Below, piece by piece: positions 35,726 to 38,084 of a DNA stretch of 64,000 bases. The stretch is from Sumerlaeia bacterium (lineage in GTDB: Bacteria; Sumerlaeota; Sumerlaeia; SLMS01; JAHLLQ01): assembly GCA_040219255.1 (NCBI GenBank), contig JAVJSW010000060.1:1-64000 (forward strand), in the 5' to 3' direction. Every line of letters begins with the position of its first letter. Position 1 is the first letter of the stretch. The position numbers and the translations under genes are program-made. The notes under the pieces are model-generated. The model worked only from the letters and a program-made list of their open reading frames with translations, did not search any database and was not told where the DNA came from.

Positions 35726-37255
35726 ATGATGACTTCCCACCTGTCACTTTGTCGCGGCGGCCTTGGCCTGCTCGCAAGCCTTACTCTCATCACAGGAGTA
35801 TTTGCGACCTTGGAGCCGGAAGAAGAGATCGTTCCCGACGCGCCCGCGCCGCTGCTCGACCGGCCCACGCCGCCGGGCGCGCCATCGCTACGCGAGTGGT
35901 CCGGCAAGAGCATCTACTTTCTGATGATCGACCGATTCGCCGATGGCGATCCGACGAACAACGCGGCCCACGGATTCGGGCCTGAGCCCGACAACCCGCG
36001 AGGCTGGCGGGGGGGCGATCTGCGAGGCCTCATCGATAAGCTGGATTACATCGAGGGCATGGGCTTCGACGCGATCTGGATCACGCCCATTTACCGCCAG
36101 AACAAGCCGCAAAGCTACCATGGCTACTGGGCCTGGGACTTCTACGATGTCGATGGGCATTTTGGAACCATGCGGGACGTGGTGGAATTGCGCGAGGCGA
36201 TGCACAAGCGCGGCATGGCGCTGATGATCGATGTGGTGGCGAACCACACGGGCGATTTCCGCTACCTGCCCGGCGATTACGAGGAGGGCGCGGCGCCGCC
36301 CTTCGACAAGCGCGAGTGGTTCAATCTGAACGGACCGATCAAGGATTTCAACAATCAGGCGGATGTGGAGAGCGGCGAACTGTCCAGCCTGGACGACATC
36401 AACCAGAATCACCCGGAGGCCCGGGCCGAACTGCTCAATACGGTTCGCTGGCTGCGAGAGCAAACCGGGGCCGATGGCTTCCGCATCGATACAGTGAAGC
36501 ATGTCCCCAAAGACTTCTGGGCCGAGTACAACGCGGCCGCCGGGGTTTTCTGTCTGGGCGAAGTGCTCCATGGCGACGCCCGGTATGTGGCGCCCTATCA
36601 GGACGTTCTCGATGGGCTGCTGGATTTCGCGGTGTACTACGCCTCCGACCGGGTTTTTGGGCGGGATGCTCCGATGACGGATCTCGCGCACGAGTTGTCG
36701 AAGGACGAATTGTACCGCGAGCCGCGGCTTCTGGCGCCATTCCTGGACAACCACGACGTGCCGCGCTTTTTGTCGAAGGTGCATGCGGAGAAGTCGGAAC
36801 AGTTGAGACGATTGAAGTTGGGCCTTATGTTCACCTTCACCGTACGCGGTATGCCCGTATTGTACTATGGGACCGAGCAAGCGTTCTCTGGCGGGATGGA
36901 CCCCTATAACCGGGAAATGATGGTCTTCGATCCCACTCATCCGGTTTACGGGTTCGTGGCGCGGCTCAATGAAACCCGCCGCAAGGTGCCGGCGCTGCGC
37001 TGGGGGTCGACAAAGGTGCTGGTGGCGACGGAAACGACGATGGTGATCGAGCGCGTCACGGACCAGGGAGAGTCCGCCTATGTGGTTCTGAACAACGGCG
37101 ACACGGAGGCGAGGGTGGCCTTTCCGGTCAAAGTGGCCAATGGACAGACGCTCTACGACCACTTCGGCAACGCAACGCCGGCGCGGGTCGAGTACGGGTT
37201 CGTGCGGGTCGGCGTGGATCGGCGCTGCGGGGCCGTGTTCGCGCCGGGAAATTGA
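35726..37255 (+). CDS. GH13 alpha-amylase family protein, exported
   Basis: IYFLMIDRFADGD, GGDLRG, YHGYW, DVVANH, GFRIDTVKH, GEVL, FLDNHD. Confidence 0.92.
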   Translation: MMTSHLSLCRGGLGLLASLTLITGVFATLEPEEEIVPDAPAPLLDRPTPPGAPSLREWSGKSIYFLMIDRFADGDPTNNAAHGFGPEPDNPRGWRGGDLRGLIDKLDYIEGMGFDAIWITPIYRQNKPQSYHGYWAWDFYDVDGHFGTMRDVVELREAMHKRGMALMIDVVANHTGDFRYLPGDYEEGAAPPFDKREWFNLNGPIKDFNNQADVESGELSSLDDINQNHPEARAELLNTVRWLREQTGADGFRIDTVKHVPKDFWAEYNAAAGVFCLGEVLHGDARYVAPYQDVLDGLLDFAVYYASDRVFGRDAPMTDLAHELSKDELYREPRLLAPFLDNHDVPRFLSKVHAEKSEQLRRLKLGLMFTFTVRGMPVLYYGTEQAFSGGMDPYNREMMVFDPTHPVYGFVARLNETRRKVPALRWGSTKVLVATETTMVIERVTDQGESAYVVLNNGDTEARVAFPVKVANGQTLYDHFGNATPARVEYGFVRVGVDRRCGAVFAPGN

Positions 37256-37286
37256 GTTGGCGCGGCCCGAGGGCTTCGCAATCTTC

Positions 37287-37316
37287 TTGATTCGAACCAG
37301 CTTTGGGGCTCATAGT
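37287..37316 (+). promoter_or_regulatory. Putative sigma70 promoter of the tRNA gene
   Basis: TTGATT-N18-CATAGT ending 11 nt upstream of the tRNA. Confidence 0.45.
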
Positions 37317-37327
37317 CGTCCAACCGA

Positions 37328-37412
37328 GCGAGCGTGGCGGAATTGGCAGACGCACCAGGTTTGCGTCCTGGCGGGGAAACCCGTGGGAGTTCGAGTCTCC
37401 CCGCTCGCACCA
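37328..37412 (+). tRNA. Class II tRNA with tRNA-Leu body and UGC (Ala) anticodon
   Basis: Acceptor stem GCGAGCG/CGCTCGC, A73, encoded CCA; D-arm GCGGAATTGGCAGACGC; anticodon arm CCAGG-TTTGCGT-CCTGG; variable arm GGG-GAAA-CCC; T-arm GGGAG-TTCGAGT-CTCCC. Confidence 0.93.
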
Positions 37413-37427
37413 TGGCTTCTCGATGTC

Positions 37428-38084
37428 ATGTATTTTGAACTTCCCGGACTCTACACGCCGTCCCTCGAGTCGCTCGTTTTCAAGGCGCTGGAGTCCTGGC
37501 ATTTCGCGGCTCATTATCTCGGTCTGGGCCTGATCGTCTGGCTTTTTGTACAAGCCGTCCAGCGGGGCTATGACTGCTTGCGCTCGGACGAAGCGCTGGT
37601 CACTCCGGCCCACCCCTCGCGTTTTTTCTTTCACGGTTTTCGCCGCGGACCGCTGTGGCAACTGGGGCTGCTCTGGCTGCTGATGGTTACTGTCGCCCTC
37701 ACTCTCCACCAGACCGCCATTGAGCACCAGGACACGACCCGGACCAAGGACTTGCTGTGCGCGGCCTGGAACGTAGTCCACATGGGCTCGATGCTCCTGT
37801 GGGTTCTGGCGGCGGGCATGGTTCTGGTGCCGCGCGTGACGAACCGCTGGAAGTTGCTCCTGCCGCTGTGGACTGGCATTCCAATTCTGGATATTCTGAC
37901 GGATCTGATCTTCTGGTATGTTCGGCACCGTGCGCTGGTATTCATCGCGCCGGACGATCGCGCGGACACGTGGGCCCTCGCCTACAATCCGGCGCTGTTG
38001 CTATGGATGGCGGCGGCCGCGGTGACGCTCTTGCTGGCCGTCGCGCGCCTGAAGCGCATCCCGCCCACGCAGTGGCCACGCTAG
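37428..38084 (+). CDS. Hypothetical polytopic membrane protein
   Basis: 218-aa ORF with about five hydrophobic segments, starting 15 nt after the tRNA. Confidence 0.65.
   Translation: MYFELPGLYTPSLESLVFKALESWHFAAHYLGLGLIVWLFVQAVQRGYDCLRSDEALVTPAHPSRFFFHGFRRGPLWQLGLLWLLMVTVALTLHQTAIEHQDTTRTKDLLCAAWNVVHMGSMLLWVLAAGMVLVPRVTNRWKLLLPLWTGIPILDILTDLIFWYVRHRALVFIAPDDRADTWALAYNPALLLWMAAAAVTLLLAVARLKRIPPTQWPR

What the first reader, a model, noticed from the sequence alone, without database searches (positions are those of the whole stretch)
37328..37412. Intact tRNA with a tRNA-Leu body and an alanine (UGC) anticodon: candidate Ala-to-Leu mistranslating tRNA
Seen: an 85-nt cloverleaf with all stems paired and an encoded CCA. 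The loop TT-TGC-GT places anticodon UGC at 37362-37364. Everything else is Leu-like: long variable arm (GGG-GAAA-CCC), D-loop AATTGGCAG, A15:U48, A73 and G37. The acceptor stem has G3:C70. The nearest Leu loop (TT-TAG-GT) differs at two adjacent bases, so one point error cannot explain it. A plausible -35/-10 promoter lies just upstream. Established: AlaRS needs G3:U70, and bacterial LeuRS largely ignores the anticodon; tRNA-Ala is class I with A37; tRNAProA in Streptomyces and the allo-tRNAs are precedents for identity/anticodon mismatch. Inference: the tRNA is charged with Leu and reads GCA/GCG, giving ambiguous or conditional decoding. Alternatives are C70-to-U or anticodon editing, or a non-ribosomal Leu donor role. 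Full GCA reassignment looks unlikely because GCA sits at conserved Ala positions in this window.
Basis: partly seen in the sequence, partly recalled or inferred. Interest (0 to 1): 0.9.

Follow-up and report, generated by a model that had tools for sequence, protein, structure and literature searches.

The report
Leucine tRNA gene with alanine anticodon
A well-formed leucine tRNA gene in this draft genome carries the alanine anticodon UGC, which would put leucine at alanine codons if real, but it is seen only in one thinly sequenced assembly that also has a stop codon inside an essential gene.

Summary
Window 37328-37412(+) is an 85-nt tRNA (ARAGORN; Rfam 52.6 bits). It has a complete class II tRNA-Leu body, G3:C70, A73, and anticodon TGC at 37362-37364.

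It is this lineage's version of tRNA-Leu(UAG). Of the best matches in 29 relatives, 21 carry TAG. One relative has the identical anticodon arm apart from TAG. Nine of 10 genomes of the same family have the TAG gene. This assembly has no Leu(TAG) gene, no Leu(AAG/GAG) and no Pro(TGG).

Nothing suggests a maintained recoding system:
- There is one LeuRS and one AlaRS.
- GCA and GCG in rpoB sit at Ala positions.
- The anticodon loop is unchanged apart from the two bases.
- No relative shares the change.

I could not verify the two bases. The only public holders have about 3x depth and no contig across the tRNA. The assembly also has an in-frame TAG at the invariant catalytic Lys of rpoB, so it contains at least one wrong or non-viable base.

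My odds are about 50% consensus error or rare allele, 25% real active Ala-to-Leu mistranslator, and 25% real but idle, a paralogue, or edited.

Separately, six intact Leu-type tRNAs with UGC turned up in unrelated public genomes and one viral contig.

The parts
37328..37412 (+). 85-nt class II tRNA gene with a tRNA-Leu(UAG)-type body and encoded CCA
   Evidence: ARAGORN; Rfam RF00005 at 52.6 bits; best matches in relatives are tRNA-Leu(TAG)
37360..37366 (+). Anticodon loop TTTGCGT: U32 U33, anticodon UGC (37362-37364), G37 U38
   Evidence: Relatives read TT-TAG-GT or CT-TAG-GA at the same columns. Locus L009 has the same arm, CCAGG-TTTAGGT-CCTGG
37330..37330 (+). G3 of the acceptor stem, paired with C70 at 37406, so not the G3:U70 wobble pair
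   Evidence: Sequence; stem check
37406..37406 (+). C70, the partner of G3
   Evidence: Sequence
37372..37384 (+). Long variable arm CGGGGAAACCCGT, the class II mark
   Evidence: Sequence. This stem covaries among relatives: columns 46-48/55-57 have changes on both sides in 4, 11 and 10 of 22 sequences
37409..37409 (+). Discriminator A73
37287..37316 (+). Weak promoter-like pair: TTGATT, 18 nt, CATAGT, ending 11 nt before the tRNA
   Evidence: Read. It is below the threshold of the scan tool, which reported 0 sites
35726..37255 (+). Upstream neighbour: alpha-amylase family gene (context only)
   Evidence: Pfam PF00128, E 9.5e-63
37428..38084 (+). Downstream neighbour: hydrophobic protein with no Pfam family (context only; start codon chosen by eye)

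Best explanation
This is the organism's single tRNA-Leu(UAG) gene, the minor leucine tRNA that reads CUA (and CUG). The UGC anticodon is a private two-base difference (TAG to TGC) recorded only in this one low-depth metagenome-assembled genome. It is most likely not the sequence of the working tRNA of the population. It is more likely a consensus error or a rare, non-representative allele picked up at about 3x depth. On this reading the real tRNA is charged by the single LeuRS and decodes Leu codons normally, and there is no recoding or programmed mistranslation. What is shown: the gene is a real tRNA, its body is Leu(UAG)-type, and the assembly contains at least one non-viable base elsewhere. 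What is inferred: that the two anticodon bases belong to that class of defect.
For: (1) Homology. ARAGORN on the best-match loci of 29 relatives gives 21 TAG, 5 GAG, 1 AAG and 2 CAA. The four closest full-length matches (84-80% identity) are all TAG. Locus L009 has the identical anticodon stem and loop except TAG.
(2) The TAG gene is kept in 9 of 10 genomes of the same family (G003-G006, G008, G010; G002, G007; G001). The one without, G009, is 83% complete. G001 (97% complete) has the full set CAG, TAG, AAG, CAA, TAA.
(3) The assembly has no other Leu(TAG) gene, yet CTA occurs 1315 times in 2506 long ORFs.
(4) There is no sign of adaptation. Loop positions 32, 33, 37 and 38 are unchanged, and G3:C70 is kept. 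There is one LeuRS and one AlaRS. In rpoB, the 4 GCA and 46 GCG codons align with Ala in 88% and 65% of relatives' residues, and Leu is not among the five commonest residues. GCG makes up 36.9% of Ala codons genome-wide.
(5) Assembly quality. The genome is 92% complete in 83 contigs. Leu(AAG/GAG) and Pro(TGG) are missing, although CTC is 32% of Leu codons. The only public holders have depth 2.6-3.3 and no contig across 36927-37450. rpoB has TAG where 13 of 14 relatives have AAG and 1 has AAA, at the Lys of PLGGKAQFGG. tRNA-Val(UAC) has a T-stem A.C mismatch where the other 19 tRNA-Val(UAC) genes found are paired.
(6) In yeast, a tRNA-Leu with the UGC anticodon cut growth to 67% (PMC11028032, passage seen), so such an allele should be selected against.
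Against: Two adjacent wrong bases landing exactly on anticodon positions 35-36, while the other 82 bases keep a flawless cloverleaf, is very improbable for independent errors. With the rough error rate the rpoB stop suggests (about 1e-4 to 1e-3 per base, my estimate from one event), the chance per genome is about 1e-5 to 1e-4. Assemblers usually discard words seen only once. Chimeric assembly between species cannot create TGC in a Leu body unless such a molecule exists in the sample. Most of the odd residues in this genome's RpoB are multi-base codon changes, which look like real divergence and not noise. rpoC, leuS and alaS are intact. tRNA-Thr(UGU) is 100% identical to three relatives. So the assembly is not generally poor. 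Intact Leu-type tRNAs with UGC exist in other genomes, including a complete chromosome, so such genes do occur in nature.
Confidence: 0.5

Rival explanations
1. The anticodon is real and fixed, and the tRNA is expressed. The single LeuRS, which does not read the anticodon, charges it with Leu. AlaRS ignores it for lack of G3:U70. It then competes with tRNA-Ala(UGC) and tRNA-Ala(CGC) at GCA/GCG (perhaps also GCU), giving low-level proteome-wide Ala-to-Leu substitution. Loss of the UAG reader would be bearable if the family's tRNA-Leu(AAG) is deaminated to IAG and so reads CUU, CUC and CUA.
For: The gene as assembled has an intact cloverleaf, A73, a Leu-type D loop and variable arm, and an encoded CCA. 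The body has been kept by compensatory change: 15 of 24 pairs have changes on both sides among 22 sequences. LeuRS is described as anticodon-blind (PMC11028032, passage). Relatives carry tRNA-Leu(AAG) in 8 of 10 family genomes, and tRNA-Leu(IAG) is reported in Lactobacillales (PMC13249217, abstract start only). Six other intact Leu-type/UGC tRNAs lacking G3:U70 exist in unrelated lineages. A double error in the anticodon is improbable.
Against: The change is unique to this genome among 41 genomes searched, and the exact body was not found in JGI metagenome contigs. The loop is not adapted: G37 is kept, whereas the other six examples have A37. GCG and GCA use is not lowered, and both sit at conserved Ala. 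The UAG gene is retained in 9 of 10 family members even though AAG is present, so its loss should cost fitness. Leu at Ala codons is harmful in yeast. No read-level or expression evidence exists. The AAG tRNA is itself absent from this assembly.
Confidence: 0.25
2. The DNA change is real but the gene is idle. It could be a very recent mutation in a dispensable minor tRNA gene on its way to loss, poorly transcribed or poorly used by the ribosome. Position 36 is now C, so the G36-G37 signal for m1G37 is gone.
For: CUA is only 1.0% of Leu codons. The Leu(UAG) gene is the fastest-evolving of the tRNAs compared: 69-99% identity between genera, against 100% for Thr(UGU) and 94-95% for Val(UAC). The promoter is weak. 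There is no adaptation of loop or codon usage.
Against: All stems are perfect and no other defect is visible, so there is no sign of decay. Two hits in three anticodon bases and none elsewhere is not what neutral decay predicts. The UAG gene is conserved in the family. The TrmD requirement is recalled from memory, not tested.
Confidence: 0.15
3. The UGC gene is an extra paralogue. The ordinary tRNA-Leu(UAG) gene lies in the roughly 8% of the genome that was not assembled, as in three Terriglobia genomes that have a Leu-type/UGC gene besides other Leu tRNAs.
For: The assembly demonstrably lacks at least one needed tRNA: Leu(AAG/GAG) is missing with CTC at 32% of Leu codons, and Pro(TGG) is missing too. 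G041 and G045 have CAG, GAG, TAG, CAA and TAA plus the UGC gene. G043 has CAG, TAG, CAA and TAA plus UGC. The position of the Leu(UAG) gene is not conserved in the family: the neighbour of the gene in G005/G010 maps to C39:23259-24599 of this genome, where no tRNA lies.
Against: Relatives have a single Leu(TAG) gene each in the searches made. This gene groups with those TAG genes at ordinary divergence, 72-84%. It needs both a duplication and an assembly gap.
Confidence: 0.08
4. The transcript is edited back (anticodon G35C36 to A35G36, or C70 to U), or it serves as a Leu donor outside the ribosome.
For: None from the calls.
Against: No editing of that kind is known to me in bacteria (recalled). 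The neighbours are an amylase, a membrane protein, a SulP transporter and a CysG/HemD fusion. None is a tRNA-dependent transferase.
Confidence: 0.02

Closest known systems
tRNA-Leu(UAG) of related genomes (loci L002-L028)
   Same: Same length class (84-87 nt), same D loop, A73, short class II variable arm and 7/5 acceptor/T stems. Identity is 72-84% within the family, and the anticodon arm is identical to L009 except for two bases.
   Different: Anticodon is TGC instead of TAG, in 1 of 22 aligned genes.
tRNAProX (tRNAProA/N/T) of Streptomyces and Kitasatospora
   Same: Bacterial tRNAs whose body identity and anticodon disagree and that mistranslate when expressed (PMC11415595, passages).
   Different: Those have a Pro body, A33, an A15-A48 pair, anticodons AGC/AUU/AGU and a dedicated ProRSx, and they form a conserved family. 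Here the body is Leu, position 33 is U, there is one LeuRS and there is no conservation.
allo-tRNAs (Mukai et al., PMC5389517)
   Same: Long-variable-arm tRNAs with anticodons for other amino acids, which insert their own amino acid at sense codons in E. coli (passages).
   Different: allo-tRNAs have 8/4 or 9/3 acceptor/T stems and mostly Ser identity. This gene is a canonical 7/5 tRNA with a Leu-type body.
Engineered and human tRNA-Leu anticodon variants (PMC11028032)
   Same: The same principle applies: LeuRS ignores the anticodon, so an anticodon change gives Leu misincorporation. A yeast tRNA-Leu with UGC was made and reduced growth to 67% (passage).
   Different: Those are eukaryotic, single-base or engineered variants. 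This is a bacterial chromosomal gene with a two-base change.
Classical missense-suppressor tRNAs arising by anticodon mutation (recalled from textbooks, not from a call)
   Same: An ordinary tRNA gene with a changed anticodon that inserts its own amino acid at another codon.
   Different: Those are laboratory-selected alleles that usually coexist with a wild-type copy. Here no wild-type copy is seen.

Membership tests
Bacterial tRNA-Leu (class II) | Long variable arm with its own stem | tested here: met
   CGGGGAAACCCGT at 37372-37384. The stem covaries among 22 homologues.
Bacterial tRNA-Leu (class II) | Discriminator A73 and a Leu-type D arm (3-bp stem, A14 A15, GG in the loop) | tested here: met
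   The D arm is identical or nearly so to 21 tRNA-Leu(TAG) genes. That these are the LeuRS identity elements is recalled, partly backed by the PMC11028032 passage.
Bacterial tRNA-Leu (class II) | Closest homologues are tRNA-Leu genes | tested here: met
   All 29 best-match loci in relatives are tRNA-Leu, 21 of them TAG.
Bacterial tRNA-Leu (class II) | Leucine anticodon (NAG or YAA) | tested here: not met
   TGC at 37362-37364.
Bacterial tRNA-Leu (class II) | Charged by LeuRS with leucine | not testable with these tools
   One leuS is present at C27. Charging needs an assay.
tRNA-Ala | G3:U70 wobble pair (AlaRS identity; recalled) | tested here: not met
   G3:C70 (37330/37406). The genome's three ordinary tRNA-Ala genes all have G3:T70 (acceptors GGGGCGG/TCGCTCC and GGGGCAT/ATGCTCC).
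tRNA-Ala | Class I body with a short variable loop | tested here: not met
   85 nt with a 13-nt variable arm, against 76 nt for the genome's tRNA-Ala genes.
tRNA-Ala | Anticodon NGC | tested here: met
   TGC.
allo-tRNA | 8/4 or 9/3 acceptor/T-stem arrangement | tested here: not met
   7-bp acceptor and 5-bp T stem. The definition comes from PMC5389517.
tRNAProX-like dedicated mistranslation system | Unusual position 33 (A33/G33) and a dedicated second synthetase | tested here: not met
   U33. A single LeuRS and a single AlaRS. The features come from PMC11415595.
Maintained (selected) mistranslating tRNA | The same body and anticodon conserved in related genomes | tested here: not met
   0 of 40 relatives. 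No hit for the exact body in metagenome contigs. None of the 58 genome-contig hits is a near relative of this gene.
Maintained (selected) mistranslating tRNA | The anticodon bases are real in the source DNA, and the RNA is made | tested here: inconclusive
   Only Logan contigs at 2.6-3.3x depth, with a hole at 36927-37450. No RNA holder is listed.

The most novel reading that the evidence does not exclude
The UGC anticodon is real and fixed. A lineage whose tRNA-Leu(AAG, presumably IAG) can cover CUA has let its redundant tRNA-Leu(UAG) drift to UGC. The cell now makes a Leu-charged reader of GCA/GCG, giving standing low-level Ala-to-Leu mistranslation. Together with the six intact Leu-type/UGC tRNAs found in unrelated bacteria and on one viral contig, it would mark a recurrent, undescribed class of natural leucine mistranslator tRNAs.
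Probability: 0.2. Interest if true: 0.75.

Novelty: new member of a known kind. Interest (0 to 1): 0.35.

Why it matters
If real and active, this would be a natural bacterial tRNA that puts a bulky hydrophobic residue at one of the commonest codon families of a GC-rich genome. GCG plus GCA is about 45 per 1000 codons. It would do so without any dedicated synthetase. That would extend natural mistranslation beyond the Pro-type and Ser-type cases, and it would show an anticodon shift in an essential single-copy bacterial tRNA caught in progress. If it is an artefact, it is a useful caution. In thin metagenome assemblies a tRNA with a disagreeing body and anticodon needs read-level proof, and an in-frame stop in rpoB is a cheap internal warning sign.

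Tried and rejected
Read-level check. The look-up of sequencing runs listed 3 DNA runs of one study and no RNA holder. Read laying showed only short contigs at depth 2.6-3.3 and none across 36927-37450. The two pieces over the tRNA in X2 and X3 differ at 6 and 4 letters and run on into unlike sequence, so they come from other organisms. The anticodon could not be checked, and I count this neither for nor against.

Independent copies of the species. An exact-body pattern with the anticodon left open found 0 stretches in metagenome contigs. A protein-guided scan with the upstream amylase returned 80 loci, the best at 37% identity, so no close relative. The genome holds the only species of its genus among the 41 genomes searched.

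Synteny. The window's flanking proteins hit none of the 29 relatives' tRNA loci. The relatives' flanking genes map elsewhere in this genome (C39, C72 and others), with no tRNA remnant at C39:21001-30000. Positional orthology therefore cannot be shown.

Codon reassignment was rejected.

A genome-wide count of in-frame stops by composition failed twice. The first version was swamped by antisense frames (546 candidates). The stricter one gave 38 candidates, mostly real gene ends, and missed the rpoB stop itself. A tblastn of 199 relatives' ORFs against the genome found only the rpoB stop as an internal one, but most of the aligned residues were rpoB copies, so the sample is small.

A stop-codon reassignment as the explanation of the rpoB TAG was rejected, because rpoC, leuS and alaS have no internal stops.

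My guess that 15 of the 58 pattern hits are intron-bearing tRNA-Leu genes got no Rfam group I intron hit at gathering threshold in the 4 such loci tested. Reading L035 shows an insertion of about 230 nt between U34 and A35 of a tRNA-Leu(UAA), with the 3' half downstream.

Literature. Five spellings of tRNA-Leu(UGC) or Leu-tRNA-Ala found 0 papers.

I did not use the protein-structure, complex or large protein-search tools, because they do not bear on a tRNA.

Full report
WHAT IS THERE. The window holds one tRNA gene, at 37328-37412 on the + strand (ARAGORN). Rfam's tRNA model matches it at 52.6 bits, E 3.3e-10. From the sequence and my stem check, it has:
- a 7-bp acceptor stem, GCGAGCG/CGCTCGC, with G3:C70;
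- U8 and a D arm GCGG-AATTGGCAG-ACGC;
- an anticodon arm CCAGG-TTTGCGT-CCTGG;
- a 13-nt variable arm;
- a T arm GGGAG-TTCGAGT-CTCCC;
- A73 and an encoded CCA.
The anticodon is TGC at 37362-37364, flanked by U33 and G37. The exception is the promoter, which is weak: 8 of 12 consensus positions, and 0 sites by the scan.

WHAT IT IS RELATED TO. I searched 40 relatives (family to class level) with the 85 bases, and 32 had a match. ARAGORN on the 29 best-match loci tRNA-Leu(TAG), 5 GAG, 1 AAG and 2 CAA. The closest full-length matches (84, 82, 81 and 80% identity) are all TAG. The alignment shows the same D arm, variable arm type, A73 and loop context. Relatives read TT-TAG-GT or CT-TAG-GA where the window reads TT-TGC-GT. 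Locus L009 has exactly the window's anticodon arm apart from the two bases.

Among 22 aligned genes, 15 of 24 base pairs show changes on both sides that keep the pair. The body is therefore a working tRNA shape kept by selection. The window's copy is 72-84% identical to the family's copies, which are 69-99% identical to each other. It is the lineage's counterpart of tRNA-Leu(UAG) at ordinary divergence.

Positional orthology cannot be shown, because the gene's neighbourhood is not conserved between genera.

THE GENOME'S tRNA SET. The genome is a 5.35-Mb, 83-contig, 63.6% GC assembly, rated 92% complete with 3.3% contamination.
- Ordinary tRNA-Ala genes: TGC (next to tRNA-Ile, 76 nt, G3:T70), CGC and GGC.
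- tRNA-Leu genes: CAA, CAG and TAA.
- Missing: Leu(TAG), Leu(GAG or AAG) and Pro(TGG). This comes from ARAGORN, from Infernal with 47 matches over the cut-off, and from the pattern search.

The family's normal Leu set is CAG, TAG, AAG, CAA and TAA, all five present in the 97%-complete G001. TAG is present in 9 of 10 family genomes.

CTC and CTT make up 32% and 7.3% of Leu codons in 2506 long ORFs. A reader for them must exist and was simply not assembled, so the assembly's tRNA set is incomplete. CTA is rare (1.0% of Leu, 1315 codons) but is used.

NO SIGN OF A RECODING SYSTEM.
- There is one leuS and one alaS; the other hits are weak partial matches well below each family's cut-off.
- In rpoB, this genome's 4 GCA and 46 GCG codons align with Ala in 88% and 65% of the residues of 14 relatives. 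Leu is never among the five commonest residues.
- GCG is 36.9% and GCA 3.2% of Ala codons, so there is no avoidance.
- The loop has no second change that would fit a GC-rich anticodon.
- The neighbours (amylase, membrane protein, SulP, CysG/HemD) have nothing to do with tRNA use.

CAN THE TWO BASES BE TRUSTED? This is the crux, and I could not settle it. The only public runs that hold the region are kept as contigs at depth 2.6-3.3, and none crosses 36927-37450. No independent assembly of the species exists in the collections I could scan.

Internal controls cut both ways.

Against the assembly:
- rpoB carries an in-frame TAG at the Lys of the universally conserved PLGGKAQFGGQRFGEME motif. Thirteen of 14 relatives have AAG and one has AAA. 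That cannot be the sequence of a living population.
- tRNA-Val(UAC) has a T-stem A.C mismatch where the other 19 tRNA-Val(UAC) genes found are paired.

For the assembly:
- rpoC, leuS and alaS are intact.
- tRNA-Thr(UGU) is identical to three relatives, so its stem mismatch is natural.
- Most of this genome's private RpoB residues are multi-base codon changes typical of real divergence.
- The tRNA in question is flawless outside the anticodon.

Two independent errors side by side in an anticodon are very unlikely. But a real, fixed, harmful allele of a conserved single-copy tRNA is also a rare event. The finding was also selected from a very large scan precisely because it is odd, so both explanations start from small priors.

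MECHANISM IF TAKEN AT FACE VALUE (inferred). LeuRS does not read the anticodon (PMC11028032, passage; details for E. coli recalled). AlaRS needs G3:U70 (recalled), which is absent. The RNA would therefore carry Leu and read GCA/GCG. G37 would probably lose its methylation, because position 36 is no longer G (recalled). In yeast the same anticodon on tRNA-Leu cut growth to 67%. The loss of the CUA reader might be covered if the family's tRNA-Leu(AAG) is converted to IAG. That conversion is reported for Lactobacillales (PMC13249217, listing and abstract start only) and is untested here. Even so, 9 of 10 family members keep the UAG gene alongside AAG.

OTHER EXAMPLES. A scan of one genome for each of 185,579 species, for a Leu-type D arm followed at the right distance by YTTGCR, gave 58 stretches.
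- ARAGORN calls a tRNA over the match in 11 of the 58.
- Of 15 loci I passed to Rfam, 11 have a tRNA hit over the site. I chose those 15 by eye as tRNA-like. The other 43 were not tested with Rfam.
- By my reading, fifteen of the 58 appear to be tRNA-Leu genes interrupted after U34. I read one of them through.
- The rest look like chance matches.

Five have an intact acceptor stem and A73 and no G3:U70:
- L076: Rhodospirillales, a complete chromosome, 61.9 bits.
- L088: Clostridia.
- L074: Terriglobia.
- L047: Parvibaculum.
- L036: Dehalococcoidia, with an irregular T arm.
A sixth lies at the end of an IMG/VR contig (L242). All six have A37, unlike the window's G37.

Of the two of these genomes checked that carry an intact example with an Rfam hit, one (G045, Terriglobia) has CAG, CAA, GAG, TAG and TAA besides the UGC gene. 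The Dehalococcoidia genome G042 shows no TAG.

Two Acidobacteria genes with odd T loops (L031, L045) fall below Rfam's cut-off. Their genomes also have other Leu tRNAs besides the UGC gene: CAG, GAG, TAG, CAA and TAA in G041, and CAG, TAG, CAA and TAA in G043.

So Leu-type tRNAs with UGC occur rarely but repeatedly. I found no paper that names them. Whether they work is unknown.

COMPARISON WITH KNOWN SYSTEMS. The gene would work like a missense-suppressor or mistranslating tRNA of an anticodon-blind synthetase. It is not an allo-tRNA, because it has 7/5 stems and not 8/4 or 9/3. It is not a tRNAProX-type system, because it has U33 and no second synthetase. It fails the test for a maintained mistranslator on conservation, and its reality could not be tested.

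VERDICT. My odds:
- 0.50: the working tRNA is an ordinary tRNA-Leu(UAG), and TGC is an assembly error or an unrepresentative allele.
- 0.25: a real, active Ala-to-Leu mistranslator.
- 0.15: real but idle.
- 0.08: an extra paralogue, with the true copy unassembled.
- 0.02: editing or a non-ribosomal role.
Interest is moderate (0.35). The decisive step is simple: look at the raw reads over the seven loop bases.

Noticed in passing
Own genome G000, contig C46:201974-201976 (outside the window): rpoB has an in-frame TAG at the invariant Lys of PLGGKAQFGGQRFGEME. Relatives have AAG in 13 of 14 and AAA in 1 of 14. rpoC next to it is intact. Most likely a base error in the assembly. I used it here as a quality warning.
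   Followed up: partly
Relatives G001, G003-G008, G010, G011, G013, G015, G016, G018, G021, G030, G033, G039: These genomes of the same family, order and class carry tRNA-Leu with anticodon AAG (A34), in 17 genomes by my count, where most bacteria have GAG. This suggests inosine-34 in tRNA-Leu in this lineage, which is so far reported for Lactobacillales. The deaminase was not examined.
   Followed up: no
Own genome G000, contig C68:282572-282648 and 283041-283118 (locus L240 8573-8649 and 9042-9119): Two odd tRNA genes lie 400 bp apart. One is a 77-nt class I tRNA with the Leu anticodon CAG and a Leu-like D loop but no long variable arm (Rfam 40.5 bits). The other is an Asn-like tRNA (G73, Asn-type D arm, Rfam 54.5 bits) whose anticodon loop has 9 bases, CTGTTATAA; ARAGORN called it a TTA 'stop' tRNA. 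Both are flanked by similar hairpins.
   Followed up: partly
Own genome G000, whole assembly: No gene for tRNA-Leu(AAG/GAG) or tRNA-Pro(TGG) is found, although CTC is 32% of Leu codons. The tRNA set of this assembly is incomplete.
   Followed up: yes
Loci L076, L088, L074, L047, L036 (genome contigs) and L242:173-258 (IMG/VR contig end): Six intact Leu-type tRNAs with anticodon UGC, A37, A73 and no G3:U70, in unrelated lineages. One is on a complete Rhodospirillales chromosome. I found no paper naming such tRNAs with the terms.
   Followed up: partly
Loci L031 (1946-2035) and L045 (3259-3346), Acidobacteriota MAGs: Two similar 88-90-nt Leu-like genes with anticodon UGC, a C1-G72 acceptor (CCCCG...) and T loops TCCAAGC / TCCGACT (C at position 55). 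They fall below Rfam's tRNA cut-off. In both genomes they come in addition to other Leu tRNA genes (five in G041, four found in G043).
   Followed up: partly
Locus L035 4451-4765 and, by my reading, 14 similar loci (L039, L040, L042, L046, L048, L052, L055, L057, L060, L064, L067, L075, L080, L081): tRNA-Leu(UAA) genes interrupted by about 230 nt between U34 and A35, the classical group I intron site. Most are in Alphaproteobacteria MAGs, with some in candidate phyla. There was no Rfam group I intron hit at gathering threshold in the 4 loci tested.
   Followed up: partly
Own genome G000, contig C1:113127-113203: tRNA-Val(UAC) has an A51.C63 mismatch in the T stem, where the other 19 tRNA-Val(UAC) genes found in relatives are paired. 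The neighbouring pair 49-65 changed on both sides.
   Followed up: yes
Locus L244 9006-9609 (IMG/VR contig): A ROOL RNA (Rfam RF03087, 279.5 bits) lies inside a phage tRNA cluster.
   Followed up: no
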